A stretch of DNA of 50,106 nt from a virus (lineage: Duplodnaviria; Caudoviricetes). The notes under the pieces are model-generated. The model had not been told where the DNA came from, ran no database searches, and saw nothing but the letters and a program-made list of their open reading frames with translations. Within the stretch, counting starts at the first letter, position 1; every line of letters starts with the position of its first letter. This document shows positions 1 through 26,556 of this stretch, piece by piece. The position numbers and the translations under genes were made by a program. The stretch spans positions 1 through 50,106 of IMG/VR virus record IMGVR_UViG_3300005860_000041; one strand, given 5' to 3'.

Positions 1-64
1 TTTCTGGCGCTATTGGCGATAGAAGGTTTTCCCAGTCTCGCTGCATTATAAGCTCGTCCTTCAT
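1..64 (-). CDS. 5' part of a second copy of the 1635..2018 gene (MKDELIMQRDWENLLSPIAPE...), truncated by the window edge
   Basis: 1-136 equals 1955-2090 with 2 mismatches; RBS GGAGGGGAG. Confidence 0.8.
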   Translation of the reverse strand, partial: MKDELIMQRDWENLLSPIAPE

Positions 65-100
65 TTCACTCCCCTCCGTTGGTTTTGGTTTACAGTCCGT

Positions 101-197
101 CATACATAATACACGCTCATAAAAAACGATGCGGCTGAGGCGTGTAACGCGCCGTGAATGCGCCTCAGCCGCATCATTATGTGTCTATGTTATGTGC
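101..197 (-). repeat. Cassette boundary module U0 (motif 101-126, hairpin 128-175, TATGTG tract 176-196)
   Basis: 118-190 identical to 1544-1616; arms GATGCGGCTGAGGCG/CGCCTCAGCCGCATC. Confidence 0.9.
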
Positions 198-211
198 CGG
201 GTTCGTTCTAA

Positions 212-916
212 CTATGAATTGTCAACTTCATCTTCATCATAATCATACGAACATGGACCATCACACTTCCAATGTGATGCTACATCTTCTTCATACAATT
301 GTCCATCTTTGTAGTAAAAGCGAGTTGTCCGCCACCACTCTTGATGCCCCCAACATTGTGCCAACATTACGAATTTCTCCCCTGTCTCTGGATCTTCTAC
401 TAATATGTCATAACTGTGAGGCACGTTGGATGAACCAAACTCAGTGACTTCCCATTCTGCTTCATTAGCGTGGGGAGGTATGATGAGGTAATGAGAATAG
501 ACACTTGTACTTTGAGTGTGTGAAAACCAAGGTGCACGACTGATGAGGTGAGGAACGTTTTCAATTACATAGCAGTTACGGATGGGTTTAACTACGAAGC
601 TGGTTCGCTCACTGTAAGAGTAAAAGTCACTGCTCTGTGTGTTATACTTGAACACCTTGAAGCCCCGTTGAGTTAGCAGTTTTTCTATGTCGAAATTGAA
701 AACCTCGTGATGATGTTTGTAGTTGTCATAAACATACGAGTGTTCAAATGTGAAAGTCTGTCCGGGTAATGTTAACTGCCACGTTTCGCGATATTCATAA
801 AGCTCATGGCAGGGTGTAGAAGTGTGATTGCACTTGCCTGTGTGACAATCACAATCACAGGGAAGCGCGCTTTTAACTGATTTAACGCGTTCAAGTTTTG
901 CCGCCATGCTAACCAT
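212..916 (-). CDS. Hypothetical cassette protein with Cys/His-rich N-terminus and acidic C-terminus (234 aa)
   Basis: ORF track 212..1027; RBS AAGGAGG at 926-932 places the start at 916; CDCDCHTGKCNH motif. Confidence 0.8.
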   Translation of the reverse strand: MVSMAAKLERVKSVKSALPCDCDCHTGKCNHTSTPCHELYEYRETWQLTLPGQTFTFEHSYVYDNYKHHHEVFNFDIEKLLTQRGFKVFKYNTQSSDFYSYSERTSFVVKPIRNCYVIENVPHLISRAPWFSHTQSTSVYSHYLIIPPHANEAEWEVTEFGSSNVPHSYDILVEDPETGEKFVMLAQCWGHQEWWRTTRFYYKDGQLYEEDVASHWKCDGPCSYDYDEDEVDNS

Positions 917-969
917 GCTAACCCACCTCCTTGTGGTTTGTGTGTAGACTAACATACCCGCATCCTGCA

Positions 970-1008
970 GTTTCAATCCCACCAATCCCACAATGGTGCG
1001 ATTGCACC
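970..1008 (-). CRISPR. Solitary CRISPR-repeat-like sequence with an internal 9-bp duplication (not an array)
   Basis: Collapsing the CAATCCCAC duplication gives the 30-mer GGTGCAATCGCACCATTGTGGGATTGAAAC, which has the 3' ATTGAAAC end typical of class 1 repeats. Confidence 0.65.
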
Positions 1009-1087
1009 GGGGCTGGTGAGGGCTCAACCCCCACCAGCCCCGGGAACGACTGGCGTGGGCTCGCTATGTGACGAGTTCCCACGCCAG
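1007..1087 (-). terminator. Two tandem GC-rich hairpins (1007-1043, 1050-1087)
   Basis: CCGGGGCTGGTG/CACCAGCCCCGG and CTGGCGTGGG/CCCACGCCAG. The second is identical to the hairpin at 49843-49887 and carries CTATGTG in its loop. Confidence 0.65.
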
Positions 1088-1096
1088 CCTTTGTCT

Positions 1097-1489
1097 TTAC
1101 TCAACTTCTTGCACAAGCGGAATTTCTTCAACGTGTCCATCACTGTGTATCCTGTATCGCTCTATTTTGTATTCACACATCCGATTGCCCATCCACGCGT
1201 CCACTATCTTTTCGACAACCATTGTGCCTGGGAAGGAGCCAAGTAACGCTCGTATCCTCTTGTTCTCGTAAGGATGAGGAATGTCAAGTTGTTCTACCTT
1301 CACGTCTGTAGGATAAATGATACTATATCTCACACGTCTCTCGACTGTTGCATCTTCCGTTTCCTCTTCTATCAAGCAGACGGCAATGGCTCCGTTCTCC
1401 AACTCCACCAGCGCATTCTGATTTATTAACCTTGCCCGCAGCGCTTTTACAACTTCGTCCCACCCTGGCGCTTTGTAGCGCTTAAACAT
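1097..1489 (-). CDS. Hypothetical cassette protein, paralog of 49906..50106
   Basis: 130-aa ORF, RBS GGAGGTGA, shared C-terminus RYRxHSDxHxEEIPLVQEVE. Confidence 0.85.
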   Translation of the reverse strand: MFKRYKAPGWDEVVKALRARLINQNALVELENGAIAVCLIEEETEDATVERRVRYSIIYPTDVKVEQLDIPHPYENKRIRALLGSFPGTMVVEKIVDAWMGNRMCEYKIERYRIHSDGHVEEIPLVQEVE

Positions 1490-1526
1490 ACTCGCTCACC
1501 TCCGTGGGTTTTGGTTTACAGCTCGT

Positions 1527-1641
1527 CATACACAATACACGCCCATAAAAAACGATGCGGCTGAGGCGTGTAACGCGCCGTGAATGCGCCTCAGCCGCAT
1601 CATTATGTGTCTATGTGTCTATGTTATGTGTCTATTATGTG
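1527..1641 (-). repeat. Cassette boundary module U1 (motif 1527-1552, hairpin 1554-1601, TATGTG tract 1603-1641)
   Basis: Same tripartite layout as U0 and U2-U4. Confidence 0.9.
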
Positions 1642-2018
1642 CTGGGAACTGCAACATAAACTTTTCGTTTTATCCTCAGTTCCATACCAGTTCCGTCCCA
1701 TATCTCTACCGCTACCGCATCTCCTGCTGCCAGCGTTACCTCTGTTTGTATAAACCTACCTCCCGCCGTTCCCGCTTGCCAGCTTCTTACTCCTACCTGT
1801 CGTTCGCGTGGCTTTCCTGCCACAACCCACCACGTTGCCTTATACCATGCAATTGACGAAGACGATGACCCGGCACTAAGCTCCAGCTTCGTCCCTGCGC
1901 GAACAGCGCAGATGACGAAGCCGTCCGCCTCTAATTTTTTCAATTCTTTTACAGTTTCTGGCGCTATTGGCGATAGAAGTTTTTCCCAGTCTCGCTGCAT
2001 TATAAGCTCGTCCTTCAT
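1635..2018 (-). CDS. Hypothetical cassette protein (MKDELIMQRD..., 127 aa)
   Basis: RBS GGAGGTGA before ATG at 2018; the longer ORF-track start runs through the repeat; ends ACA-TAA. Confidence 0.85.
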   Translation of the reverse strand: MKDELIMQRDWEKLLSPIAPETVKELKKLEADGFVICAVRAGTKLELSAGSSSSSIAWYKATWWVVAGKPRERQVGVRSWQAGTAGGRFIQTEVTLAAGDAVAVEIWDGTGMELRIKRKVYVAVPST

Positions 2019-2054
2019 TTCACTCACCTCCGTTGGTTTTGGTTTACAGTCCGT

Positions 2055-2163
2055 CATACATAATACACGCTCATAAAAAACGATGCGGCTCAGCCGCATC
2101 CATGAACGTATTATGCGGCTGAGCCGCATCATTATGTGTCTCTATATGTGTTTATCTCTATGT
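2055..2163 (-). repeat. Cassette boundary module U2 (hairpin 2082-2130 with inverted loop)
   Basis: Motif 2055-2080; loop CCATGAACGTATT is the reverse complement of the U4 loop. Confidence 0.9.
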
Positions 2164-2204
2164 AGAAGGAGCGGTGGCGGTAGCACAATACCACCACCGC
2201 CACC
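2164..2204 (-). ncRNA. Candidate small RNA (gene-less cassette): hairpin followed by CUCCUUCU
   Basis: Lies between modules U3 and U2 with no RBS or credible ORF; stem GGTGGCGGT/ACCGCCACC is extendable by G-U pairs on the transcribed strand. Confidence 0.35.
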
Positions 2205-2296
2205 ATATACACGCCCATAAAACGATGCGGCTGAGGCGCATAACACGTTCATGGATGCGCCTCAGCCGTGCTATGTGTCTATGTGCTATGTTATGT
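2204..2296 (-). repeat. Cassette boundary module U3
   Basis: Motif variant TTTATGGGCGTGTATA, hairpin 2225-2270, TATGTG tract 2271-2296. Confidence 0.9.
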
Positions 2297-2641
2297 TTCT
2301 TCTTTAAGTGCTTCACATTCCTTCCCATCAAAATGCCAATCCACCCACGTCCAATCCCACACCATTGGATTTCCTTCCGCGAGCATCCTACCACATTGTT
2401 TACACCAAATTTCCTCCTTCAACTGCTCTCCATTCAGTAACTCGTAGACGTAGATTAATTCATTGTCATCCAGCAATTGCTCCTCCACCACCACCTCTCC
2501 GCCATTTCGAAGCTCCTTGTATACTTTTTCCCTACACCTATCACAGAGAGTGAGAGTTCTCTCTCCACCCTTTGCTACTATCTTCATACCCCACCGTGCT
2601 TCCTTATTGCACCTATCGCACCTATCGCACACCGCCATCAT
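2291..2641 (-). CDS. Zinc-finger-like cassette protein
   Basis: CDRCDRC, CDRC and CKQC motifs; RBS GGAGGTGA; ends ACA-TAA. Confidence 0.85.
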   Translation of the reverse strand: MMAVCDRCDRCNKEARWGMKIVAKGGERTLTLCDRCREKVYKELRNGGEVVVEEQLLDDNELIYVYELLNGEQLKEEIWCKQCGRMLAEGNPMVWDWTWVDWHFDGKECEALKEET

Positions 2642-2709
2642 ATTTCACCTCCACATGGTTTTGTTTTTGTGGGCATGTTAGCCCACAATCCCACACAGGT
2701 TGGGCTCGT

Positions 2710-2820
2710 CATACACAATACACGCCCATAAAAACTGACACGGTTGAGGCGCATAATACGTTCATGGATGCGCCTCAGCCGTGCTATGTGTCTATGTGCT
2801 ATGTGTCTACGTGCTATGTG
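2710..2820 (-). repeat. Cassette boundary module U4
   Basis: Motif 2710-2734, hairpin 2739-2783, TATGTG tract 2784-2820. Confidence 0.9.
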
Positions 2821-3917
2821 TCCATATACGTTGGCATCACCACATAACGCATTGATGCTACTATAAAGAGTGGCGAATGGTTATTCTCGTAATGAACGGT
2901 AACAACCTCACCGCCAAACAACTTAGCGATGTTGTGCAGGAATTTAGCATTCATGGCAAAAGTATCTTTCTCTATCCCAGAATGCACAACACTAATGTCC
3001 ACTACCGCACGTGAGGCAACTTGTTCATCCTCTGAGCGGTATTCAAGCATCATTTTTGAACCTTGGATGTCAAGTGTCACATAAATTCGTGGCATTCTTT
3101 CTTCTTTTGGGATAGGAAAACTATTCACAACGGCTAAATCGGAGGCATTCAAAGTAAAAACAACGGATGAATTTTCTCGCCTAATCCGGCGCCAGTCAGG
3201 GTAGTTATCTTTTTCGGTTAGCGAGACTATCCGAGTGGCATTGGTTCTCAGTTCGATATTATTATTACTGTATCCTGTAACAACAACGCTACCATCACGG
3301 ATAACTTTAGCCAGTCTTTTAGCTGTTGCATGTGACAAGACTAACGATTTTTTGTCTATTATGTGACCAGTGCCTGATAAACGCTGAACAAGCTGAACAA
3401 GTAGTTGGCGAGTATCCGTAGAAACTACAAATAGACCAAACTCGCATGGTTCTACTAAAATATGATGCAAAACTCCACATGTTTCATCTTCAGCAACACA
3501 CATCAGTGCTTTCGTCAGCGCATCAGCAAACTGCCTTGCATCAAATGTGTATTGCCAAACAACGTCACCTAAAGTAGAGAGAATTGGAAATTCACGAGGA
3601 TTAATTACGCTTAGTGTTGTTGTAATATTGCCAGTCTGGATGTCAATTTTATCGCCATGGAGGTTAAATACCACATCGTCAGTATACTCCAGCGCTTTCA
3701 AATCATTATAGGACACGCAAAAACTTTCCTCTGCATCAGCGACAGCGTCAATTTCAGTAACGAAGTAGTCCCTTATGTCCGTTGCGACAATCTCCAGTTT
3801 ACCTTCGTGTGTAGTAAATTTGACAGTGTATAGTGCAGGTAGTGGCGACTTACGAGGAATGAATTTCCCCGCATTTGACAGTGCTTTTTTGAGTTCACGT
3901 CCATTAACCTTAATCAT
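2814..3917 (-). CDS. dnaN: DNA polymerase III beta sliding clamp homolog (367 aa)
   Basis: Length and motifs: ELKKAL..KSPLPAL, LEIVATD, EFPIL, VSTDTRQL, NYPDWRRI, AMNAKFL, PLFI..YVVMP. Confidence 0.88.
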   Translation of the reverse strand: MIKVNGRELKKALSNAGKFIPRKSPLPALYTVKFTTHEGKLEIVATDIRDYFVTEIDAVADAEESFCVSYNDLKALEYTDDVVFNLHGDKIDIQTGNITTTLSVINPREFPILSTLGDVVWQYTFDARQFADALTKALMCVAEDETCGVLHHILVEPCEFGLFVVSTDTRQLLVQLVQRLSGTGHIIDKKSLVLSHATAKRLAKVIRDGSVVVTGYSNNNIELRTNATRIVSLTEKDNYPDWRRIRRENSSVVFTLNASDLAVVNSFPIPKEERMPRIYVTLDIQGSKMMLEYRSEDEQVASRAVVDISVVHSGIEKDTFAMNAKFLHNIAKLFGGEVVTVHYENNHSPLFIVASMRYVVMPTYMDT

Positions 3918-3953
3918 ATTCACCACCCCTTTTTTTAGTTTAGGATACCGCGC

Positions 3954-4044
3954 CATACTTAATACCCGCCCATAAAGTGTTGGGTGGCATGCGAATGCCT
4001 TTTCGCATGCCACCCAGCGGTGTTTATGTGTCTATGTGTTATGT
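3954..4044 (-). repeat. Cassette boundary module U5
   Basis: Motif TTTATGGGCGGGTATT, hairpin 3979-4018 of unrelated sequence, TATGTG tract. Confidence 0.85.
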
Positions 4045-4278
4045 TGTGTTACTTTCATCTTCCGTTCTTTCGGCAAGTATCCGACACCTCTCATCATCAT
4101 GGTCTACGTTGACGACACGCGTCAGCGTGTCGCCAATATACCACCGCACTCCTCCATACCAGCAAACCCTTTCAAGCTCAATTTCCTCCTCGTCCTCTCG
4201 CTTCGTCCACCACGGGTTTGCTGGACGTGCTTCAAGCCACTCTCCGCAGTGTGGGCATTTCTTTACCCACCATTTCAT
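4039..4278 (-). CDS. Small acidic zinc-ribbon-like cassette protein
   Basis: CPHC motif; RBS AGGAGGTGA; ends ACA-TAA. Confidence 0.85.
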   Translation of the reverse strand: MKWWVKKCPHCGEWLEARPANPWWTKREDEEEIELERVCWYGGVRWYIGDTLTRVVNVDHDDERCRILAERTEDESNTT

Positions 4279-4303
4279 GATACTTCACCTCCTTATAAAT
4301 GAT

Positions 4304-4362
4304 GCACGGTTGGGAGCGCACAATGAACTTCTGTGCGCTCTCAACCGTGTGCTATGTTATGT
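4304..4362 (-). repeat. Cassette boundary module U6 (hairpin plus TATGT tract, no promoter-like motif)
   Basis: GCACGGTTGGGAGCGCACA/TGTGCGCTCTCAACCGTGT; arm start CACGGTTG shared with U4. Confidence 0.8.
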
Positions 4363-4438
4363 TTCTTCTTTAAGTGCTTCACATTCCTTCCCATCAAATG
4401 GTTTTGTTTTTGTGGGCATGTTAGCCCACAATCCCACA
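4351..4438 (-). pseudogene. Internally deleted copy of the 2291..2641 cassette (3' end fused to its 5' leader)
   Basis: 4351-4398 matches about 2285-2332 and 4398-4438 matches about 2655-2695; junction at an ATG microhomology. Confidence 0.85.
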
Positions 4439-4459
4439 ATCCCACAATGGTGCGATTGC
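4437..4459 (-). CRISPR. Second, 3'-truncated CRISPR-repeat-like sequence
   Basis: CAATCCCACAATGGTGCGATTGC is identical to 983-1005 and adjoins hairpin 4463-4504. Confidence 0.55.
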
Positions 4460-4513
4460 GAAGGATGGCGCGAGCGCGACACAAAAGATGCGCTCGCGCC
4501 ATCCGTATGTGTT

Positions 4514-4930
4514 CTATTGGTCAATTTGTTCAAGATAAATGTAAAGCTCTCTTAGCGGATGAGTGTCAGACACATACTCTACCACCACGTCTGCGATTGC
4601 CATTATTTTCTCTTGTAACTGTCGCAGTTTACTAACAAGCTCCTGCCTGACATCCCACAATGCCCCGCAAGCAACAAACATTAAGACCGGATCCCTATCG
4701 AATTTGTCTTGTGCTTCGCCTAAAGCATTATAAACAATTGTTTCAGAATGTGAAAGTAAGTCTAACAAGCTCAGTATCTTGTCGCCCAACTCATCCCAGC
4801 TATCGTTGACCCAATCAAACTTGATACCAGCGAAAGCGGTCGTAAGCGTCTGCGGTCCCATAGCCATATATGTCCATCTGGCTCCCTTAATGATGGGATA
4901 CAGCAGTTCGCATCGTTCCTCTTTTGTCAT
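4514..4930 (-). CDS. Hypothetical helical cassette protein
   Basis: ORF track 4514..4939; RBS GGAGGTGA before ATG at 4930. Confidence 0.8.
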   Translation of the reverse strand: MTKEERCELLYPIIKGARWTYMAMGPQTLTTAFAGIKFDWVNDSWDELGDKILSLLDLLSHSETIVYNALGEAQDKFDRDPVLMFVACGALWDVRQELVSKLRQLQEKIMAIADVVVEYVSDTHPLRELYIYLEQIDQ

Positions 4931-4988
4931 TTTATTCACCTCCGTTTTTGTGCGGGCTTGTTATCCCGCACCTTACTTCAGTTGCCGT

Positions 4989-5081
4989 CATATGTAATAC
5001 TCGCTCATAAAACTTAAAGGGCGACACACAGTTGCAGGGTGTGTCGCCCTTTAAAGGTCGTATGCTATCTATGTGTCTATG
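4989..5081 (-). repeat. Cassette boundary module U8
   Basis: Motif TTTATGAGCGAGTATT, 16-bp perfect stem 5014-5054, TATGTG tract. Confidence 0.85.
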
Positions 5082-5278
5082 CGCTTACCTTGGACAAACA
5101 GGAACTCTATGTATGGTGGAACGCCCAAGTAGGCGTCCCAGTCACCAGTCCAGTGTTCGCATTTTTCCACTTCCTCTGCAGTTATACCATCATCGTCAAT
5201 GATGATGGTATACTGCATTCCGCAGAATGGGCAAATCACCTTCCCGTTGTTATTCACCTTAACCCATACTTCTTGCAT
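5069..5278 (-). CDS. Small acidic zinc-ribbon-like protein
   Basis: CPFC...CEH; RBS GGGGGTGA; ends ACA-TAG. Confidence 0.8.
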   Translation of the reverse strand: MQEVWVKVNNNGKVICPFCGMQYTIIIDDDGITAEEVEKCEHWTGDWDAYLGVPPYIEFLFVQGKRIDT

Positions 5279-5296
5279 CTTCATCACCCCCTGTTT

Positions 5297-5575
5297 TTAC
5301 ACGGAGTTTAAAAGGAACACGACTTGTTTGAATGCCTCTTGCAGTGTGTCATATGACATGAAGAAGCAATCTTCAGGACACACTACTTCATACCACCGTC
5401 TACGCTTCTTGCCGTAATACATCTCGTTGCGCACAAGGAAGACAATTTTGGCGGTGTCGGGGTTGATAATACGAAAATACAAGTTCAAGTTTTTGGGTGT
5501 GACAGTCACGATAAATCCGTGTTTTCTGCACAGTCTTTCCACTGTTTTTTGTGTCTTACTTCTCTCTTTGCTCAT
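5297..5575 (-). CDS. Small basic hypothetical protein
   Basis: RBS AAGGGGTGA before MSKERSK; coupled to the upstream gene. Confidence 0.75.
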   Translation of the reverse strand: MSKERSKTQKTVERLCRKHGFIVTVTPKNLNLYFRIINPDTAKIVFLVRNEMYYGKKRRRWYEVVCPEDCFFMSYDTLQEAFKQVVFLLNSV

Positions 5576-5789
5576 CCTCATCACCCCTTTGGAAGGAACA
5601 CTGTCCATTCCACAGACACACAGTGCATGCCTGTTCTTCGCACTTGAGCCCGCACACCATCTGTGAGCCCTTCCCGTTATCTCGTAAGATGAAGTTGCAC
5701 CATAGTGGTATAGCAACCTCAGCATCCACCAATCTACCGCACACGCAACATTTTACGATGTGTCTTGCGATGCTTTCTACCACTTTCAT
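5556..5789 (-). CDS. Cys-rich zinc-binding hypothetical protein
   Basis: CCVC, CGLKC and CTVC motifs; RBS GGGGTGA. Confidence 0.75.
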   Translation of the reverse strand: MKVVESIARHIVKCCVCGRLVDAEVAIPLWCNFILRDNGKGSQMVCGLKCEEQACTVCLWNGQCSFQRGDEDEQREK

Positions 5790-5979
5790 TCTTCATCACC
5801 CCCTTAAAGAATGTGACTTTAAATGGAATAAACAGCCAACCTGCCACCTTTTTGAGTTCTCTCTCAGCAACAACTATATGGTCACCACATAGATAAAACA
5901 CATCATCGCCATACCGTATCTTTCCCACCGCTCTTTTCTTACATTTGCTATACATGCATCGGCGCATTCCTTTTATCAT
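5734..5979 (-). CDS. Small basic zinc-finger-like protein
   Basis: CMYSKC...CGDH; RBS GGGGGGTGA. Confidence 0.7.
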   Translation of the reverse strand: MIKGMRRCMYSKCKKRAVGKIRYGDDVFYLCGDHIVVAERELKKVAGWLFIPFKVTFFKGVMKNESGRKHRKTHRKMLRVR

Positions 5980-6002
5980 TCACCCCCCTTTTGAGTTTTA
6001 CA

Positions 6003-6026
6003 GGGGACGGCTTTAAAGCCGTCCCC
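6003..6026. promoter_or_regulatory. 24-bp perfect palindrome (terminator or operator)
   Basis: GGGGACGGCTTTAAAGCCGTCCCC, downstream of the ATPase gene. Confidence 0.6.
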
Positions 6027-6071
6027 CTGTGCGGGTAGCGAGACAGGTTGAGACGGCGGAGAGGATGGCTC

Positions 6072-7115
6072 TTATGTGCCATTAGGCGATGCTTTCTTCT
6101 TTAGCTCCTCTAAGAATGGGCGGAGCTTCTGTTTATAGAACTCTTGTGCCTTCCAAGGCTTATTTGATGCCACAATCTCCGCCCATTCCCTTCCGAGGCG
6201 CTCCAGCTCTTGGCGCTCCGGATCTGATACTTCTGGTGAGCTATAAATTTTTGTCATCAGCTTTACGACTGCTGCGATTGCTTCATTCTTCTTCGCAACA
6301 TCAGCGAGCTTTCTTTGTAGGAACTGCGGGAATGGTTCTTCTTCAACTGGTGCGTCAAGCACTCCTTCAATCAGTGCAACTGCGTCAGTGCTTGTTACCA
6401 CCGTTGGTGCTTCGTCAACTTCAACTGGGAGTTCTTGTGGTCTCTCTGTTGTTGCTAAGTTTAGCCGTTTTAGCAGTTCTTCTGCTTCTGCCGGGAACAC
6501 TGTGTTGTGTAGTGTTGGGATGCGTGCTCCAACATTGCCTGCTGCGGGCGAGAATGAGACTTGGTAAACTAACCTACCTTCCACAACCTGCACACTAATG
6601 TTACCTATCGCATCGCACTCTGCCAGAACAGCTCGCCCAGTCTTACCCGGCAGGTCCACAGTTGATGCACCAGCTTCCAATCCTGGCTTTACATGGATGA
6701 GGAACACAACGAGCTGGAAGCACTTTCGTAGTGCCCTAATCCAGTCGACGATACTGATACGTGCCAGCGCGAAGCCCTTGCCATACGCCGCCTTCTCAAT
6801 GTCTGTTCCAATTTGTGCTTCGACATAGTTTGACAGCAAATCGTAGGCGGCGTCAAGGGTGTCGATGACAATGCACGGATACTTACCACCAAACTCACTC
6901 GGTATCGCTAACAATTCCTCCCAAGTCTCAGGCTGAATGCCATCGACGTGGAAGGGAAGGAAGTCCGTCCCCTTTTCAATGTCCACAACCAGCCCACCAA
7001 GGGCGCGGGCAACTTTTGCACCAAATGTCGTCTTCCCGCCCTTTGGTGGTCCATAGACGGCGATGGTCGCATGCTTGATTGGCTGTTTCCCGAGCTTCTT
7101 CACTTGCAGGCTCAT
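6072..7115 (-). CDS. Sak4-like/AAA_24 P-loop ATPase (phage recombination protein)
   Basis: Walker A YGPPKGGKTT, DIEKGT, Walker B IVIDTLD, FLIH, DAIG; ends ACA-TAA. Confidence 0.8.
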   Translation of the reverse strand: MSLQVKKLGKQPIKHATIAVYGPPKGGKTTFGAKVARALGGLVVDIEKGTDFLPFHVDGIQPETWEELLAIPSEFGGKYPCIVIDTLDAAYDLLSNYVEAQIGTDIEKAAYGKGFALARISIVDWIRALRKCFQLVVFLIHVKPGLEAGASTVDLPGKTGRAVLAECDAIGNISVQVVEGRLVYQVSFSPAAGNVGARIPTLHNTVFPAEAEELLKRLNLATTERPQELPVEVDEAPTVVTSTDAVALIEGVLDAPVEEEPFPQFLQRKLADVAKKNEAIAAVVKLMTKIYSSPEVSDPERQELERLGREWAEIVASNKPWKAQEFYKQKLRPFLEELKKKASPNGT

Positions 7116-10810: not shown

Positions 10811-11298
10811 TTGATGCCCTCCTCTCTACACACAACCTTAGCAAACATTTTCCAAAAACGTAAGTAGGGAAAATCAACGGGGTCTTGCTTGCCTGCAATG
10901 CTAATGTCTTTGTGTGCGGTGATTGTGGAAATCGGCGTTGGATTGTTCTTCATGATTTGCCATATGAGCCACGCAAGCGCTTCCAATTGTTTGTCTGGAT
11001 AATCACGCGCACCTTCGTAACTCTCAATCTCAATGCCAATTGAAATGTTGTTCACTTGATTGCATACACCAAGCCTGCTCTTACCCGCATGCCACGCCTT
11101 TCTTGTCGTGGGAACGAGCTTGTAAATTGTCCCATCTCGTGCAACTAAATAATGAGCACTAACTTTACTCTCGGGGTTCGTCAACCACGATAATGCGGAT
11201 TTTGCATTGCCTTCTGTAGTGTGAAGAACTATCACATTCGTAACACTACCAAGTAACCTTTCACTTTGATTTGGTGATGGCTTTTCAATCACTTTCAT
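10807..11298 (-). CDS. N-acetylmuramoyl-L-alanine amidase (Amidase_2) endolysin
   Basis: PSPN, VLHTT, SAHYLV, AWHAG, SIGIE, AHKD..KQDP. Confidence 0.92.
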   Translation of the reverse strand: MKVIEKPSPNQSERLLGSVTNVIVLHTTEGNAKSALSWLTNPESKVSAHYLVARDGTIYKLVPTTRKAWHAGKSRLGVCNQVNNISIGIEIESYEGARDYPDKQLEALAWLIWQIMKNNPTPISTITAHKDISIAGKQDPVDFPYLRFWKMFAKVVCREEGIK

Positions 11299-12742
11299 CA
11301 CTCTCACCCTCTTCATCTCCAAATGTTAACCTGTCCACTTTTATTATGCCACGTGATGTTCGCATTTGTCTAACCCCTTTCAAGTCTTTCTTTGTAGCCT
11401 CTTCGGGCTCCGGTTCTTCACTATACCCTGGTGCTGTAATTATACCACGCGATGCAAGGTTCGGTATGACTTTCTCTGCGCGCTCTGTTGCATCTTCTGC
11501 TCTGTAGTAAATATCACTATCACATTTTATCTTCTGTGCAACCTCAAGTGCTTTATCTCTTGCTTCAGCTATTGTTTCACCAAACGATGCCACTTCGCAA
11601 ATGATTGCATCTGTGCCTGCACAACGAAGCTCACCATTCTTGATGTAAACATCCATCGGAAAGATTTCTACATCCTCAGGTGTGTCTGGAAATTCAACAT
11701 ACACATCTTTGGCAAACACTTCATAGAGCTTCTCAACCTCTTGTGAAACCGCTTCACTACCCTCAAGTGGATACGGCGGTATGGACACTCTAATTGCAAA
11801 CCCATAACCCTTCCTTAAGTTCATCACAACTTCTTCTCCAGCTGCAGCTTTGTAAAGCACCTCACCAAATTCTTGTGTGCGCCCCATCAACATGAGTAAA
11901 CAAAAGATTGCATTGTAACCAAACCTACTACCACACCATTCAAGGAAGAACGGATTGCCACCCCTGTGGCTCACTATTGTGTTTGCATCCCACGCACCAC
12001 TTTCATTCGCAGCTGCAAGCATCGGCGCAATCTTCTTATGCGTCTCTTGAACAAGTAGGTCGTCTGGTCCTGCAGCAAACACAATTGAAGTTTGACAACC
12101 TGTGTTCGGTCCTAAATCACCAGGTGCAAACTTCTTCGTCTCAACTGTGTAGTTGATTGAACCAGGTATTGGCTTGCCATTTGAATACCACACTTCCGTG
12201 CTTATTTCGTGCCCCGGAACAAAGTCTTGCACAATGAATGACTTAGCATCAACCAAGTAACCCGCCTCTTGTTGCCTCATAAGCCATCGTGCTGCAGCCT
12301 CTGGATTTTGTGCCACATATGATGACGCACACGCAACCCTACCTGAAAGCTTAATGACAACCTTCCTGTTATGCTTGATGATGTAATCTACTGCCTCGTT
12401 CACATCTTTAAATACACGCGTGTATGGAACACGAATGCCCGACGCTAATGCCATCGCTAACCCAAAATGCCTATCCTCTTCCGCTCTATCACCAAGCGCT
12501 GTGCCGTTGAAAACCTTCTTCCCAGACTTACGAAGGTCTTCCATCACCTTGGATAAACCAGTCTCATCACTAAAATACACATCAAAGTCGTCAGGCACCT
12601 TGTCAAACTTCGGCACTAAACCATCATACAAATGCTTGCACGACCTTGACATTATGACAGCTGCAATTTGATGCCCCTCGTCCCTTAAGCGCAAAAGTAA
12701 TGGTAATCCTGGACCACTCTTTGTGATGAGACAAAACTTCAT
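11285..12742 (-). CDS. Divergent PurD (phosphoribosylamine-glycine ligase)-like ATP-grasp protein
   Basis: VVIKLSG, IVQDFVPGHEIS, GDLGPNTG, LEW..SRFG and a GARS-C-like tail (GETIAEARDKA..DIYYR); no GxGGREH motif. Confidence 0.8.
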   Translation of the reverse strand: MKFCLITKSGPGLPLLLRLRDEGHQIAAVIMSRSCKHLYDGLVPKFDKVPDDFDVYFSDETGLSKVMEDLRKSGKKVFNGTALGDRAEEDRHFGLAMALASGIRVPYTRVFKDVNEAVDYIIKHNRKVVIKLSGRVACASSYVAQNPEAAARWLMRQQEAGYLVDAKSFIVQDFVPGHEISTEVWYSNGKPIPGSINYTVETKKFAPGDLGPNTGCQTSIVFAAGPDDLLVQETHKKIAPMLAAANESGAWDANTIVSHRGGNPFFLEWCGSRFGYNAIFCLLMLMGRTQEFGEVLYKAAAGEEVVMNLRKGYGFAIRVSIPPYPLEGSEAVSQEVEKLYEVFAKDVYVEFPDTPEDVEIFPMDVYIKNGELRCAGTDAIICEVASFGETIAEARDKALEVAQKIKCDSDIYYRAEDATERAEKVIPNLASRGIITAPGYSEEPEPEEATKKDLKGVRQMRTSRGIIKVDRLTFGDEEGESDESD

Positions 12743-15700
12743 TCTTCTTCACCCCCCAGTCCATACTTTGCTGGGACTGGCTGTATTTGGGCTTCTGCCT
12801 TAGCCTTTTTGAGTATTTCTTTTTCTTCTTCATGGATTTCTTTTAACCTTTCAAGAGCCTTCAAGAGCATATCAAGCGAAACATATGTCTTTTTCTTCTC
12901 ACGAAGTGTTTCAGACTTGCGCGCATATTCTTCAAGTGTAGCAATAAGCGGTGAATTCCTATTCATTTCGCTCACCAAGAACCTACGCACATTGTAAAAG
13001 CGTATTCCAGAAAGTAATATGTCGCGCAAAATTGCAGTCGCTTGCTCTGGTGTAACTTTGTCAGGCTTTGGCATCCTTGAAAGTAATGCCTCACGCTTGA
13101 CTTCATCTGGCGCAGTCATGTGTATGATGTGAGCGTATGTTAGTGCTTCACCAGTAAATGGTGCGCCTCGCAAGACATAGAGGCTCTGTTGAATGCCATG
13201 TAGTGCCTTGCTTATCTTTGACATCGCCTCCATATCCTCTTTCGTGAACTTAGGCATAAGCGCCTGTATCTTTTCAAGTGAGAGTGCGCCTCGTCCTGCA
13301 CTTGCAACTGTCTCTGGTATCATCGGAGTAAGCCCACCACTTAAAACATGTAACACAATAGAAAAGCCCCACAGGTCTTTCATAATCCTGTCGCCAAATT
13401 CAAACGAGAATATTGGGTTGTCGTATATCATCTTGACAACATCTATTAAGCTTTGCGCTTCCTTCGGATAACGCTTCTTCATTTGCTCCCATTCCGCCCC
13501 TACTTCGCCTACTAACCTAACCGCATCATAAGTGTCGTCAAGTAAGCGCACAATAAAGTCAACTGGTGGCAATGGCAAGAAACCACCACCTGTAGTGCCA
13601 CGCCCATACTCCGCAGGAAGCTCACCAAGCATTGCTCGTAATGCTGTCACTCCACCTGCGATATATTCGCCAAGAAGCTCATCCCAAGTTTGCTTAGCAC
13701 CTTCAATTGCTTGTGCTGCATGCTTCATTTGAAGCTCTGCTCTAAACCTTCCAGTTGCCATGTAAGCCCTGTAAGCAGCGTCACCTGCAATCGGTGGCAC
13801 TACATCAATGAAGATAGAACGCACAAATAGCTTCTTCCAATCATCACTGTGCTCTGCAAGTAACCACGCTAATCCTGCAGCTGCTACCATGTCAACCGTG
13901 ATTGAAGTGATAAAGTTGGTCAATGCCCAAAGCCTCTCCTTTGGCGTCAGTTGCCTGTTCAGCGCCTTGCCAAGCGCATCTAACTGCAAGAATGCTTTGT
14001 TTATACCATATGACTGGAAGAATGTCAAAGCACGGTAAAAGTCTCGCATTGGGTCTTGTGCTAATGCTCGTGGCATGCCACCTGAGACAAGTGGAGCTTG
14101 TGTGATAAGTGATGCTATAGAGGCTCGTTCGCGTGCTATTACAGGGTCTACACCTCTGCCAATCCACTTTAGGTATTCGGCAATGTAGATGACAGCGCGT
14201 GGAACTGCATCGCATACTTTGAACATAAAGTCACCAAGAACGAATGGAAGTTCGTTGGTTGTCCTAATTGCCCTTATTGGGTCTTTGGCAAATTCGTGTA
14301 ATCTATCAATTACCCAGCGTGCCTTCTCGTTGTCGTTTAGCCCTTGTGGTGCAAGCCTTAGAAGGTTGTGATACAAGCCAAACAATGCTTCTGCGTCAAT
14401 TTCAGATATCGCAGGTTGTGAGCCTACAAACTTCTTCACTTCTGGGTCGGCAATGAACAACCACGCAGCTTTGGCTAACCGCTCAACCTTGTCAGGTAGT
14501 GGCTCTGTTGGCTCATAAGCGAAATAAGAACCCCACGACATGCTCAAGTTTTTGAGTAGCACCGTCGGTCTGAATGTGATGATGGTCTTACCAGTGAGGG
14601 CAAAGAGCGTATCTATCATCCTTTCCCAAACTCGTGCGCTTCTCCCTGCAAGGTCGTAGTATGGACGGTAGCCAACTTGTTGGAAGGCAACATTTTTAAT
14701 CTCGTCAGCAAGCTGTCTATATTGGTTTGCCAAGTTTATTGCATCTGGCGTCCCTTGTTGCTCAAGCTTAGTTGCACCTTTGTAAAGAGCCTTCATGAGC
14801 CTATCTTGTGAGTATGCGTGTGGCATTTCAAGTGCCATATGAACAATGCCACGCACAGCCCTATAAGCGGTGGTGAATGGGTCTTCCCAACCAAGAACAT
14901 TCTCAATGACACGGCGCGGTATGCCTGCTATTGGCACATGCTTTTGTGAAAGTAGCCTCAAAGCTTCTTCAACTGTTGTTGGCTCAAACTCTCGTTGCGG
15001 TATTATCGTCTTCATGAAGCGTCGTCCTTCAAGCATTGCCCTGTAAATGTCAGCGCTCGGAGAACCCATAGCGCGTGCAATCCATTCCAGCGCACCTGCC
15101 TTCAAAACACCACTAAACGAAGTGTCCCAATGATGCGGTGCCCAAAATGCCAAGTGTGCCATCGGCGGTCGTATGGTTTGGTAGAATGGGTAAGCACGAA
15201 CAACATCGTTGTATAACTTATAAGCCTTGTATGAGCCTACAAGGAAATAAACACTCGCTTTTTGAAACCTCTGTAATTCGTCAGCTGACAACTTAATATC
15301 AATAGGTTGTATAGTGCCAGCACCCATAAACGCATTGTAAGTAAACTGCGCATTCTTGCGCATAATACCCGCAAGTGTCGTATCTGGCACACCTATTTGC
15401 TGTATCAAGACATTGAGCACTTGTCCACGACGCACACCATGTAACCTTGCAAGTAAGTCTACAAGGTCGCTTTGTAAAACATTGTGTGCCGGGTCTTTTG
15501 AGCCAGCTGCCTCAGCTCGCTCAAACCTTAACACTAACTCCCGTATGAGCTTCTCGTTGAGCTGTGCTAAATCGTCAACAGTTAGGCGCCTGCCACTTAG
15601 CGATGCAATGCGCCTGTGAATGTCATCAAAGACATTACGCATGTTCTCATGCCATAATTGCCACCTCACCTTTAATAATGGGTGGGTGAGTTTCATTCCC

Positions 15701-18700
15701 CACCGTCGCAAAATATCACTCACTCTAACCCGCGCACTTTCTGGGTTTTTACCACCCTCTAAGACATGCTCTGCTGCTGCAAAGTAACCAAATAGCTTCG
15801 GTAGCAGCTCAGTGCGCATGCGCCTGCGTGCTTCAATACCACCACCAATAAGCGTCTGGTAAAGGAATGCTGCAACGGTATCTGCGTCGTAGCGCCCACC
15901 AGAGCGCATCGCAATCTGGTTGGCAATTGCTTTGAGCGCATCATAGGAGCGAAGAAGTGAGTTGCGGAACTTGGCAAGTGCCCTCGGTAGCTCAAATGTT
16001 ACTTGTCCTTCTTCAATTGCCTTCAGTAGGTCGTCAATCACTACATCAATCTCGTGCTGTGGAATGATTTCACCCTTCGATTTGCGGTCAATGATGTAAA
16101 GTAGGTCGCTGGCTGTCGGCGGTGTCCTCAAAACACCCCTCGATGGTTTCGGTGGCGCTGGCGCTGTAAAGCTTTGTTCTACTCTGTCGACAAAGTTCTT
16201 GTATGCAGGCACACGCTTCAACGCTTCATGAGCAAATGGCAAACTCCTAAGCGCAAGGTATAGCCCTGCTAAGCCTTGAAGGGCACTGGAAAACGCTTCA
16301 CCGTAGGCTACTTTAATACCCTCTTCTATAGCTAACGGACCGAGCGGGATAAAGCTCATCGCAGGTAGCTTGTTTATGTCTACAGTTCGTTCTTCTTTCA
16401 TGCCTTCTGGTGCTGGAGCCACAGGAGGCTTAAGCAATATCGGTTGCTCTGGTGCTAACTTGGCTACTTCATCCGCAATGCGCTTCACTTCAGGCAATGC
16501 TTCCCTTAGCTCCCTTATACGTTCAAGCTCCTTAAGTAACGCTTGCTCTTCTTGTTGTAGTTCATTATACTTTGCAATAACATCTGGTCTTGCCTTAGCT
16601 CCAGCTCTATTCAATATCTTTTCAAGCGTTGCAACTTTCCGATGCGTCCACGCAAGTTGTTGTCTAAGTGCCTCTTCTCGTTGCTTGAGACTTTCACCGT
16701 ATTTGTCGATGTTTTGTATGCGCTTTAGTATGTCAATTATCGTCTCATGCAGCGTCAGGTAGGATATAGGTCGTTGTTCAAGTTGTTTTTGTGCCCTTGC
16801 TATTTCATCTTCAAGGTGGTGTATCATACTCCACAGGTTTACAATTGATTTACTGATTACTCGAGAATGCTTTAGTTGCTTTTCAAGTTTCAAACGTTCC
16901 TCATGCAAGCGCTTAAGTTCGGTAGCTAATTCCTTGATGGCTGGCTTGTATTCCATTATTGGGTATGGTGCTGCTTCTTCAGCAGCAGTTAAGACATCTA
17001 TGTAATGGCTCAAAAATTCTATCCGTTGGTCAATCTGCTTTATTATTTCTGGTAACTTTTCAGGCATTGCTTTCTTTTCTGCCTGTAGCTCCTCTATAGC
17101 CTCCCTGAGTGTTTCAATCATCCCACGATGTAGTTTAATCATATCCTCAGGATGTGCGAATTGCTCAATGAAGTAAGCTGGTGCTTGAGTGGTAAGGATG
17201 AAGCTCCTAAATGGTATACTCTTAACATTCTCAACAAGCTTTTCTGTGATTTGGACGACTTGATGAAGTCGTTGCAATGTTTCAGCATCAGCATTTTCTC
17301 TTTCGGCAACAAAAAGCGCATAAGTGCTCGCAGTGTGAAGCGCTGTCACATATCTCTCTAATGCTTCTTTGGTCACAAGGATGCCTTTGTTGGCACTTAG
17401 CTTTGCTAAGTGGTCTGCAGTTATACTTTCAACAGGCTTGATTGAAGATACGTCAACCATCCTTGAAATATCTACAACAAAGCGTGGTGCTGCATAAGTG
17501 CCACCAACTACACGCACAGTTGGCACATATACTCCTTTTTGGGGCTTTTCCGTAACCACTTCAACTTCAGCCTTTGTAGGCTTTTCAAGAAACCTTTCTA
17601 CATCACGAATGTTCTTAAGGTTGCCAAATGCCTTCCCTAATTGTGACAGGTATAGTTGAAGTGCCGATAATTCGCTTAAGCTTTCTGCAAGTGTGAGCAA
17701 ATTCTTACGGTTACCTTCTTGCGCCATCTTCCTTATCTGGTTGTAAATGGTAGTGAGTTGGTCATAGAGCCTCTCTACATCTTTGGCTGGTGGCGCATAC
17801 ATGAGATGTTGCCATAACGAGAAGTAATTCAATACAGTCTCCACTTCTTCTTTAGTGAGCCCACCGGATGCTTCAACAATGGTGTCTTTAAGTGCATTTA
17901 GTGAGCCCCTTAAGGCTCTAAGGTGGGAACCACAGATTGTGTTGAAAACAAAGCGCCGTTGTTGTGCATCTCTGATAAACGGAAGGTTTAGGTGGTTTTC
18001 AAGCTCGTTCAAATAGGCTATAAACAACTCCAGTTTGTTTGCAGGTATACCTTGAGGTGATTGTTGTGCTTGCTGTAAAGCTCGTGAGAGGAACTCAACT
18101 AACGGTGAGGGTGCATGCTCGTCTATACCTATGCGCCGTAACTCATGAAGCATCTTGTTGATAATTTCAGCATTCCAAGGGTCAGTTTGTAAGAGAGTGC
18201 GTGTAACTGCACTTGCGATTGTAGGAACTGTATGAAATTCTTTTTCAACGATTGAGCCAATGTTTGCAACACTTAGCCCAGTTGTTTCATGTGTGTGACG
18301 CAAAAACGATGATGTGGGAATGTCTAAGATATAAATTTCTCTCCCTTTGGTATGCACTTGTGGTGCAAACATTTTGATGCCTACGCCAGTCACTTCGCCC
18401 GCTTCAGCGCGTGCCTCAAGCTCCATCCTGCCACGCATCGCCCGTGCAAGAATAACATCAAGCGCAGTAGCTTCGTGTCGTATCAAGTCAATAAGGTGGC
18501 TAAGGATGCGTGCTGTGCGCCTCGTCACATCAGGTGTTTGCGTAAGCTGTGGGAATTGCCTCCTAAAGAGGTAATTGAGCGTTAGGTTGATGTCCTCTGA
18601 AGATACTTCGTATAAGCTCCGTTGAGAAGTCAGCAAACTAAAGAGGTAATCCTTAAAGAAAGTCTTATCTGGCATTCCTTTGAGGCTCTCTGTAATTCTG

Positions 18701-26538: not shown

Positions 26539-26556
26539 GCTCAACCCTCCTCTCTA

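What the first reader, a model, noticed from the sequence alone, without database searches (positions are those of the whole stretch)
970..1008. Solitary CRISPR-repeat mimic in a cassette leader (candidate RNA anti-CRISPR or Cas6 processing site)
Seen: the transcribed strand reads GGTGCAATCGCACCATTGTGGGATTG-GTGGGATTGAAAC. Without the 9-nt duplication it is a 30-mer ending in ATTGAAAC, matching 22/30 positions of the Archaeoglobus fulgidus repeat as I recall it (GTTGAAATCAGACCAAAATGGGATTGAAAG). It sits right after a hairpin, where other cassettes have the promoter-like motif, about 40 nt before an RBS. Known: Cas6 leaves an 8-nt AUUGAAAC handle, and phage solitary repeat units can act as RNA anti-CRISPRs (Racrs). 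Inference: a Cas6/Cas7 decoy, a regulatory mini-guide, or an mRNA whose expression depends on host Cas6 cleavage.
Basis: partly seen in the sequence, partly recalled or inferred. Interest (0 to 1): 0.8.

Follow-up and report, generated by a model that had tools for sequence, protein, structure and literature searches.

The report
Phage copy of host CRISPR repeat
A hot-spring phage carries, just upstream of one of its genes, a near-exact single copy of the CRISPR repeat used by the bacteria whose CRISPR arrays target this phage, most likely as an RNA decoy or cutting site for the host enzyme Cas6.

Summary
The window is a whole 50-kb virus record. On the transcribed strand, 1005..983 is identical over 23 letters to positions 4-26 of a genuine 30-nt CRISPR repeat. 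That repeat fills very large arrays in hot-spring metagenomes and in thermophilic Armatimonadota genomes. With the 9-letter duplicate left out, site A matches the commonest repeat at 28 of 30 positions.

Nineteen of 2960 spacers from these arrays hit the window. Fifteen are perfect, they fall on both strands, and most have a 5' CCN motif. The host lineage encodes type I-B with Cas6, a I-A-like module and III-B.

The site is not strictly solitary. A truncated copy lies at 4459..4437 and a remnant near 2690. The same core recurs in at least five unrelated contigs. These mobile-element copies never keep the last four letters of the crRNA tag (0 of 17). Solitary copies in host chromosomes always do (35 of 35).

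My best reading is a solitary repeat unit (Racr-like) read by Cas6 as RNA. Function is untested. The kind is known, so this is a new member. Earlier scan notes concern this window only, not other DNA.

The parts
970..1008 (-). Site A: the 39-nt repeat-like unit of the finding. The first two G (1008-1007) also close the upstream hairpin.
983..1005 (-). 23-nt core GCAATCGCACCATTGTGGGATTG, identical to positions 4-26 of the host CRISPR repeat. It spans the whole predicted repeat hairpin and the expected Cas6 cut site.
974..991 (-). Two tandem 9-nt units GTGGGATTG. The second is the inserted duplicate.
970..977 (-). ATTGAAAC, identical to the last 8 nt of the repeat. That this is the crRNA 5' tag left by Cas6 is textbook knowledge, not tested here.
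1007..1043 (-). 17-bp GC-rich hairpin directly upstream. It has no T-run after it and is not called as a terminator.
1049..1089 (-). First hairpin after the stop of the upstream ORF, also without a T-run. Coordinates are approximate, read by eye.
1097..1489 (-). Upstream ORF (130 aa, no family). Inferred to be co-transcribed with site A.
1534..1549 (-). Nearest upstream copy of the promoter-like motif TTTATR-N5-GTATW (11 copies in the window, none at sites A or B).
212..916 (-). Downstream ORF, 234 aa, Cys/His-rich, with no Pfam or PHROG family and four metagenomic homologues. RBS at 930-924.
4421..4462 (-). Site B: the same 23-nt core (4459-4437), then two more TGGGATTG units running into GTGGGCTAAC, with no AAAC. 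It lies after a hairpin without a T-run, in a cassette that is cassette C with a 319-nt deletion.
2678..2696 (-). Site C: remnant TGTGGGATTGTGGGCTAAC in the leader of ORF 2291-2641, downstream of a promoter-like motif.
3032..3068 (+). Example protospacer, hit perfectly by two array spacers. It is one of 18 distinct protospacers spread over 1196-49283.

Best explanation
Shown: site A is a phage-borne solitary copy of the 30-nt CRISPR repeat of the phage's own host lineage. These are thermophilic Armatimonadota with type I-B including Cas6, a I-A-like module and III-B. The copy keeps the repeat hairpin and the cut site. Inferred: this cassette boundary lacks both the T-run terminator and the promoter-like motif found at the other boundaries. 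The unit is therefore probably transcribed inside a two-gene mRNA (ORF 1489-1097, hairpins, unit, ORF 916-212). In that RNA, host Cas6 would bind the hairpin and cut before A986 and/or A977. The likely consequence is a Racr-type effect: Cas6, and possibly Cas7, are tied up on a non-guide RNA while the phage is under heavy CRISPR pressure. The same cut would also separate the two cistrons. Binding, cleavage and any effect on immunity are untested.
For: 1. Identity. The 23-mer is exact, and 28 of 30 positions match the commonest repeat (2525 copies) once the duplicate is left out.
2. Same system, same phage. 19 of 2960 unique spacers from arrays with this repeat hit the window; 15 are perfect; 11 lie on the + strand and 8 on the - strand. 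A 5' CCN stands before 13 of the 16 protospacers aligned from spacer position 1.
3. Host cas genes. There is a full I-B locus ending in cas6 and Cmr1/Cmr2 beside an array leader. Cas6 is present in G001, G002, G013 and G017 and absent from the window.
4. Structure. The canonical repeat folds as 5-9/22-26 plus 11-13/18-20 at -9.5 kcal/mol, so the conserved core is the whole hairpin. Site A keeps the same basal stem and the same AAAC flank by using its second copy.
5. Selection. The same core stands alone in five other contigs that share nothing else with the window (17 copies in all). Positions 6-15 are invariant, and positions 19-24 vary in only one copy. Loop variants in these copies (ATAG, ACAG) match the repeat variants of related host genomes.
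6. Tag loss. 0 of 17 mobile-element copies keep AAAN right after the core, against 35 of 35 host solitary copies. In RacrIF1 the active RNA is the part upstream of the Cas6f cut and lacks a 5' handle (PMC10651486, passages read).
7. Transcription context. No terminator-like site is called upstream of sites A or B, whereas the ordinary cassette terminators are called. None of the 11 promoter-like motifs lies at A or B.
8. Accessory trait. The closest complete relative (portal 99% identical) has no copy with up to 3 mismatches.
Against: There are no RNA data, and transcription of the unit rests on the missing T-run and missing promoter motif.

8 of 17 mobile-element copies follow a T-run of 5 or more, like real intrinsic terminators. 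In phage G006, two copies are followed 27 nt later by a TACAAT box, one of them TGcTACAAT. Those copies may lie upstream of a promoter and outside the mRNA.

Host chromosomes carry the same unit beside housekeeping genes, so a solitary repeat need not be anti-CRISPR.

The 9-nt duplicate changes the upper stem and loop and could spoil Cas6 recognition. A close relative lives without the unit.

The copies were found with patterns containing the core, so part of its conservation is built into the search.
Confidence: 0.5

Rival explanations
1. Host-style RNA processing signal rather than an anti-CRISPR. In this lineage the repeat and Cas6 serve as a general intercistronic cut site, and the phage copies the signal to mature or stabilise its own polycistronic mRNAs. 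T7 does something similar with host RNase III sites (recalled, no call).
For: G013 holds 23 solitary full repeats and G017 at least 12, in short intergenic gaps beside housekeeping genes. Between co-directional genes, 9 of 10 are in sense orientation. One copy is absent from the orthologous spacer region in two relatives. Sites A and B sit where a terminator plus promoter would otherwise be. Many copies are followed by a hairpin that could protect a new 5' end.
Against: There is no RNA evidence in host or phage. Phage copies drop the tag that host copies keep, so the two sets are not under the same constraint. The phage would depend on a defence gene that hosts often lose. A close relative lacks the unit.
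Confidence: 0.2
2. A DNA-level element: part of a promoter or operator, or a short shared linker on which phages of this host recombine and shuffle gene cassettes.
For: The unit occupies the slot of the promoter-like motif. 8 of 17 copies come right after T-run terminators. In G006 a TACAAT box follows two copies at the same 27-nt distance. The core is a near palindrome (5 mismatches to its own reverse complement). It is the only sequence shared among otherwise unrelated contigs, and Logan contigs branch at its edges.
Against: This reading does not explain why the element should equal the CRISPR repeat and track its loop variants between host strains. The sigma-70 scan sees no promoter there. 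The two G006 copies with the same spacing are paralogous. All copies with an assignable downstream gene share its orientation, which a symmetric operator would not need.
Confidence: 0.15
3. An inert relic left when a virus-borne mini-array, or a recombinant with a host array, collapsed to a single repeat.
For: A distantly related phage fragment (L002) carries a host-like leader plus three repeats. Site B lies in a decayed, deleted cassette. The unit is missing from the closest relative.
Against: The exact 23-nt core is kept in six sequence contexts while its flanks differ. The same ends are lost in 17 of 17 copies. Copies recur several times per contig in the same slot and orientation.
Confidence: 0.1
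4. A crRNA-like mini-guide. The intact tag ATTGAAAC plus the following leader is loaded into Cascade or Cmr and redirects them, for example to a cas promoter.
For: Site A alone among the 17 copies regains a perfect 8-nt tag. Viral crRNA-like regulators exist (10.1101/2024.10.29.618823, abstract and outline only).
Against: The 22 letters after the tag have no match with up to 3 mismatches in host genomes G001 and G002, though both are incomplete. No second repeat or terminator bounds a guide. The 'spacer' would be the gene's own RBS region.
Confidence: 0.05

Closest known systems
Solitary repeat units (SRUs) and RNA anti-CRISPRs (Racrs). Camara-Wilpert et al. 2023, PMC10651486, passages read; Faure et al. 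2019, known only as cited there.
   Same: A single intergenic copy of the host's CRISPR repeat in a virus without cas genes. The host carries the matching system. The part upstream of the Cas6 cut is what is kept. A Racr can share a transcript with a protein gene (RacrIC1 with AcrIC5).
   Different: No promoter of its own is seen; the unit sits between two genes after hairpins. It carries an internal 9-nt duplicate. The host phylum (Armatimonadota) and the I-B/III-B context differ from the tested Racrs (I-F, I-C, I-E, V-A in the passages read). Activity is untested.
Virus-borne mini-CRISPR arrays (recalled from Medvedeva et al. 2019; also summarised in PMC8616872, passage read).
   Same: Host-type repeats on a virus. 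L002, a distant relative, has a host-like leader and three repeats.
   Different: The window has no spacer flanked by two repeats, so it cannot guide interference by itself.
Viral crRNA-like regulators ('Cracr', bioRxiv 10.1101/2024.10.29.618823; abstract and outline read).
   Same: Repeat mimicry by phages. Site A has an intact tag.
   Different: These need a spacer-like part matching a host promoter, and none was found.
Host RNase III sites between phage T7 early genes, and mobile promoter/stem-loop cassettes of T4-type phages (both recalled, no call).
   Same: Intercistronic position at cassette boundaries, with possible processing by a host nuclease and a possible role in cassette shuffling.
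   Different: Here the signal is a copy of an immune-system repeat.

Membership tests
SRU / Racr | Sequence close to a CRISPR repeat of the cognate host | tested here: met
   23 of 23 exact and 28 of 30 without the duplicate. The repeat is present in Armatimonadota genomes and metagenome arrays.
SRU / Racr | Solitary: no further repeat at spacer distance | tested here: met
   The only other copy with up to 5 mismatches is 3.4 kb away. An internal 9-nt duplicate is present.
SRU / Racr | Intergenic, on a mobile element without cas genes | tested here: met
   The unit lies between ORFs 1097-1489 and 212-916. The record is a virus with clamp, tail and virion genes. A Cas6 model search of the whole record was negative. 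Other cas families were not searched across the whole window.
SRU / Racr | Host carries the matching CRISPR-Cas type | tested here: met
   I-B with Cas6, a I-A-like module and III-B in the host lineage. Spacers against the window link phage and system.
SRU / Racr | Repeat-like RNA secondary structure | tested here: met
   The basal stem CAAUC/GAUUG and the AAAC flank are kept; the upper stem is altered by the duplicate.
SRU / Racr | Expressed as RNA, often from a promoter just upstream | tested here: inconclusive
   No sigma-70-like site or window-specific promoter motif lies upstream. Read-through from the upstream gene is inferred. No RNA run is listed.
SRU / Racr | Binds Cas proteins and lowers CRISPR interference | not testable with these tools
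   Needs biochemistry or a reconstituted system.
Virus-borne mini-CRISPR array | At least one spacer flanked by two repeats | tested here: not met
Viral crRNA-like regulator (Cracr) | Spacer-like part partly matching a host promoter | tested here: inconclusive
   No match with up to 3 mismatches in two incomplete host genomes.
Rfam CRISPR direct-repeat families | Match to a curated CRISPR-DR model | tested here: not met
   No CRISPR-DR family among the matches up to E = 1 in 1-6200.

The most novel reading that the evidence does not exclude
In this thermophilic Armatimonadota lineage, the CRISPR repeat has escaped the arrays and serves with Cas6 as a dispersed intercistronic RNA signal in housekeeping operons. 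There are dozens of precise solitary 30-nt copies, biased to the sense strand and polymorphic between species. The phages of these hosts have copied a tag-less version of it to the starts of their accessory gene cassettes. They would use it either to have Cas6 mature their mRNAs or to soak Cas6 up. The unit at 970-1008 would then be one visible end of a host-and-phage 'Cas6 regulon'.
Probability: 0.2. Interest if true: 0.85.

Novelty: new member of a known kind. Interest (0 to 1): 0.62.

Why it matters
Phage, host lineage, CRISPR type, motif and spacers are all tied together here from sequence alone. That gives a concrete, testable Racr candidate for type I-B/III-B systems in an uncultured thermophilic phylum. 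There is also a sharp contrast: mobile-element copies always lack the last four letters of the crRNA tag, while solitary copies in host chromosomes always keep them. This points to which half of the repeat matters to the phage, namely the Cas6 side and not the effector side. The many solitary repeats next to housekeeping genes in host genomes raise the separate question of whether Cas6 has a role in ordinary gene expression.

Tried and rejected
RBS sequestration relieved by Cas6. In a 146-nt fold, the 5' half of site A pairs with the RBS and start region. That pairing is absent from the 109-nt fold and is not reproduced in four other copies. I dropped the idea.

Mini-guide. The 22 letters after the tag have no match in G001 or G002.

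Rfam. Nothing relevant in 1-6200 at E up to 1.

Sigma-70 scan. 9 sites found against 10.0 expected, so it is uninformative.

RNA evidence. No RNA holder is listed. One DNA run (X1), kept as contigs, was found. When laid, its short contigs cover 949-1005 and 976-1021 without differences. The run may be the source sample, so this is not independent support and says nothing about expression.

Conservation of the unit upstream of homologues of the downstream gene. Scans of viral contigs with the protein and with the alignment found no relative. None of my fetched loci encodes one, and neither do 41 host-lineage genomes (an empty answer without a positive control).

Phage identity of L039, L050, L065 and L079. 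0 of 10 ORFs hit PHROGs. L065 and L079 are spacer targets. L039, L050 and L037 remain unclassified contigs.

Single hits of the 20-mer in an Anabaena record and an Acidobacteriaceae record (L005, L008) share only the 3' part (4 mismatches in the 23-mer). Three viral contigs (L129-L131) likewise share only the 3' part (5 mismatches). I did not follow either set.

Supplementary files of PMC10651486 were closed, so I cannot say whether this record's unit is already in their SRU list.

Full report
WHAT IS THERE

The window is a complete or nearly complete virus record: 50,106 bases, 96% complete by CheckV, linear. Nearly all its genes lie on the minus strand. It encodes a sliding clamp, an AAA_24 ATPase, tail-like and virion proteins, and a 4601-aa ORF.

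On the minus strand, 1008..970 reads GGTGCAATCGCACCATTGTGGGATTG GTGGGATTGAAAC. GTGGGATTG stands twice in tandem, at 991-983 and 982-974. It occurs 6 times in the window, always on the minus strand, against 0.41 expected; 0 of 100 shuffles reached 6.

The unit starts inside the 3' arm of a 17-bp GC hairpin at 1043-1007. It ends 39 nt before the RBS GGAGGTG at 930-924 of a 234-aa ORF whose ATG is at 916.

IT IS A COPY OF A REAL CRISPR REPEAT

A scan of viral contigs with the 23-mer 1005..983 found one other record, L002, with three copies spaced 66 and 68 nt. L002 is a phage fragment. It has a terminase and an SU10-type portal, 28-37% identical at protein level to window 42-45 kb. It ends in a host-like leader plus three 30-nt repeats.

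A genome scan with a 20-mer found arrays in two Armatimonadota MAGs:
- Candidatus Thermosaccharophagus yellowstonensis (L003, L007), with repeat GTCGCAATCGCACCATTGTGGGATTGAAAC.
- 'Armatimonadota bacterium Bin S17' (L006), with repeat GCAGCAATCGCACCATTGTGGGATTGAAAC.

In those loci the form GCAGCAATCGCACCATTGTGGGATTGAAAC occurs 2525 times, and I extracted 3084 spacers, 2960 of them unique.

Site A without its 9-nt duplicate differs from that form only at positions 2 and 3 (28 of 30). The 8 letters at 977-970 equal the repeat's last 8. Leader position and the degenerate last repeat fix the orientation of the arrays. Site A is in the crRNA sense, on the strand of the phage genes.

THE SAME SYSTEM TARGETS THIS PHAGE

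Nineteen of the 2960 unique spacers match the window: 5 from L046, 13 from L089 and 1 from L106. Fifteen are perfect over their whole length. They define 18 distinct protospacers between 1196 and 49283, with 11 hits on the + strand and 8 on the - strand.

Of the 16 protospacers aligned from spacer position 1, 13 are preceded by CCN. Targeting of both strands together with a 5' motif indicates DNA targeting of the type I kind. That reading rests on established knowledge, not on a test here.

Bin S17 (G002) has a full I-B locus: a TM1812-family gene, an unassigned 507-aa gene in the cas8 position, then cas7, cas5, cas3, cas4, cas1b, cas2 and cas6. It also has a I-A-like cas7/cas3 module. In metagenome loci L083 and L018, the array leader adjoins a Csx14/Csa3-like gene, cmr1 and cas10/cmr2. 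The window itself has no Cas6.

NOT QUITE SOLITARY, AND NOT UNIQUE TO THIS PHAGE

The same 23-mer stands at 4459..4437 (site B). It again follows a hairpin, but it is followed by two more TGGGATTG units and GTGGGCTAAC instead of AAAC. Site B's cassette is the cassette of ORF 2291-2641 with 319 nt deleted. That cassette's own leader keeps only TGTGGGATTGTGGGCTAAC, which is site C.

Outside the window, the core occurs alone in L039 (3 copies), L050 (3), L065 (2), L079 (2), L037 (2) and the complete 63-kb phage G006 (3). Apart from the core, these contigs share nothing with the window: no blastn hit beyond the core and no tblastx hit at 1e-8. L065 and L079 are themselves hit by array spacers.

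Of the 17 mobile-element copies:
- An RBS-like site and a start codon follow within 27-98 nt in about 12.
- Eight are preceded by a T-run of 5 or more.
- Wherever a downstream gene can be assigned, the copy shares its orientation.

The closest complete relative of the window is G003 (portal 99% identical, 52 kb, direct terminal repeats). It has no copy with up to 3 mismatches, and only two patches of 72-73% identity to window 1-6000. The unit is thus an accessory, variable trait.

WHICH PART IS KEPT

The canonical repeat folds into one hairpin: pairs 5-9 with 22-26 and 11-13 with 18-20, at -9.5 kcal/mol with 95% of the ensemble. The core kept in mobile elements (positions 4-26) is exactly that hairpin plus the expected cut site 8 nt from the repeat's 3' end.

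Within the 17 copies, positions 6-15 never vary and positions 19-24 vary in only one copy (G006c). Variation sits in the first two letters, the loop and the last two letters.

None of the 17 copies has AAAN right after the core. Site A regains AAAC only after its duplicate. In the fold of site A, the first CAAUC pairs with the second GAUUG. The basal stem and the AAAC flank are thus restored around a longer upper stem, at -14.5 kcal/mol.

Loop variants seen in mobile-element copies are ATAG in L079 and ACAG in L050. These are the repeat variants of related host genomes: ATAG in G013, and ACAG in G012 and G015. In all, 14 of 41 relatives of G002 carry the family.

One caveat applies. The first copy in each contig was found with a pattern containing positions 7-26, and further copies with up to 3-5 mismatches. 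Conservation of the core is therefore partly built into the search. The contrast at the flanks is not.

TRANSCRIPTION CONTEXT IN THE WINDOW

Ordinary cassette boundaries carry a hairpin with a T-run, called as a terminator. They also carry the motif TTTATR-N5-GTATW (11 copies against 0.10 expected). Sites A and B have hairpins without a T-run, no terminator call and no motif. I infer that ORF 1489-1097, the hairpins, site A and ORF 916-212 form one transcript, so that site A is present in RNA.

This does not hold everywhere. The copies in L039, L079 and G006 follow T-runs. In G006, two paralogous copies are followed 27 nt later by TACAAT, so they may lie upstream of a promoter.

SOLITARY REPEATS IN HOST CHROMOSOMES

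In host genome G013, 39 core matches comprise 16 in small arrays and 23 solitary copies. In G017, most of 15 matches are solitary. All 35 fetched solitary copies are full 30-nt units ending in AAAC, AAAG or AAAT.

In G013 they lie in short gaps next to housekeeping genes such as hemB, trpC and mutS, a CO-dehydrogenase flavoprotein gene and a 2-hydroxyacid dehydrogenase gene. Between co-directional gene pairs, 9 of 10 are in sense orientation (binomial p about 0.01 by my arithmetic).

One copy is absent from the orthologous intergenic region in G017 and G015. Several copies carry a second partial 3' end a few letters downstream, as does the last repeat of L003 and, in its own way, site A. G013 and G017 both encode Cas6.

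INTERPRETATION

That the site derives from the host repeat is, in my judgement, beyond reasonable doubt.

The kept part (hairpin plus cut site) and the lost part (the effector-binding end of the tag) point to Cas6 rather than Cascade or Cmr as the partner. Sense orientation, tracking of host loop variants and heavy targeting of the phage fit the same reading. It is also the logic of RacrIF1: there the RNA upstream of the Cas6f cut holds Cas6f and a Cas7f filament, and because the RNA lacks a 5' handle it does not recruit Cas5f and Cas8f (PMC10651486, passages read). The same paper reports 2103 viral SRUs and a Racr that shares a transcript with an acr gene.

I therefore file site A as a solitary repeat unit and a Racr candidate, with confidence 0.5 for the full mechanism. 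The host chromosomal copies keep alive a second RNA-level reading, Cas6-dependent processing used by host and phage alike (0.2). The copies that follow terminators, and the palindromic core, keep alive a DNA-level reading as a promoter, operator or recombination linker (0.15). An inert relic (0.1) and a mini-guide (0.05) are less likely.

NOVELTY

SRUs and Racrs are known, so this is a new member. It has some unusual traits:
- an intercistronic slot in place of a terminator plus promoter;
- an internal duplicate that rebuilds the hairpin;
- several tag-less copies in unrelated elements of one host lineage;
- a host lineage whose chromosomes are themselves sprinkled with full solitary repeats.

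My literature searches listed nothing on Armatimonadota phage SRUs or on dispersed chromosomal solitary repeats processed by Cas6. That covers only the held library, and I saw listings and passages only.

The earlier notes of this scan all concern this same window. One of them describes site B and agrees with what I found.

Noticed in passing
L164-L195 (host genomes G013, G017): Dozens of precise solitary 30-nt CRISPR repeats lie in short intergenic gaps beside housekeeping genes. Between co-directional genes 9 of 10 are in sense, and all 35 fetched copies keep the full 3' end. One copy is absent from the orthologous site in two relatives and is flanked by a 15-nt direct duplication.
   Followed up: partly
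L002:4593-4780: A phage fragment (terminase, SU10-type portal) ends in a host-like CRISPR leader plus three repeats and two spacers, a virus-borne mini-array. The targets of its spacers were not sought beyond my own loci.
   Followed up: partly
L004:6405-6494 (same in L072): A two-repeat, one-spacer mini-array, with the second repeat truncated, sits in the Bin S17 chromosome away from any array, apparently inside or between coding sequence.
   Followed up: no
G002:C95:28910-28999 (L139 about 10911-11000): Two degenerate repeats 67 nt apart lie between cas3 and the next gene of the I-A-like module. This looks like a cas-locus regulatory mini-array (crRNA-like RNA).
   Followed up: no
L163 (G002:C34:2240-2262): A solitary tag-bearing copy with the loop variant of phage G006 lies 11 nt after what reads like a tRNA 3' end. 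It may mark the edge of an integrated element.
   Followed up: no
L029, L098, L120, L126, L124: An array leader is followed by a single perfect repeat and then non-array sequence. In L124 a second repeat lies 277 nt on.
   Followed up: no
L145:1560-1680 (minus strand; phage G006): After one repeat copy come four to five tandem 13-nt units, each containing TACAAT, then a terminator and no ORF. This may be a small RNA gene or iterons.
   Followed up: no
window 4280-4510 vs 2230-2760: The cassette at site B is the cassette of ORF 2291-2641 with 319 nt deleted. Its leader (44 nt, 98%) is joined to the gene's last codons and terminator (51 nt, 100%).
   Followed up: yes
window 1468-1500: A Logan contig joins an ATAG-variant repeat to window sequence starting at 1468. 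This is probably a further array spacer against this phage, from a host with the variant repeat.
   Followed up: no
window 12739-26544: A single 4601-aa ORF on the minus strand, followed by an ATP-grasp (PurD-like) gene. It was not examined.
   Followed up: no
L003:3600-3650: The last repeat of the Thermosaccharophagus array carries a tandem 15-nt duplicate of its 3' end.
   Followed up: no
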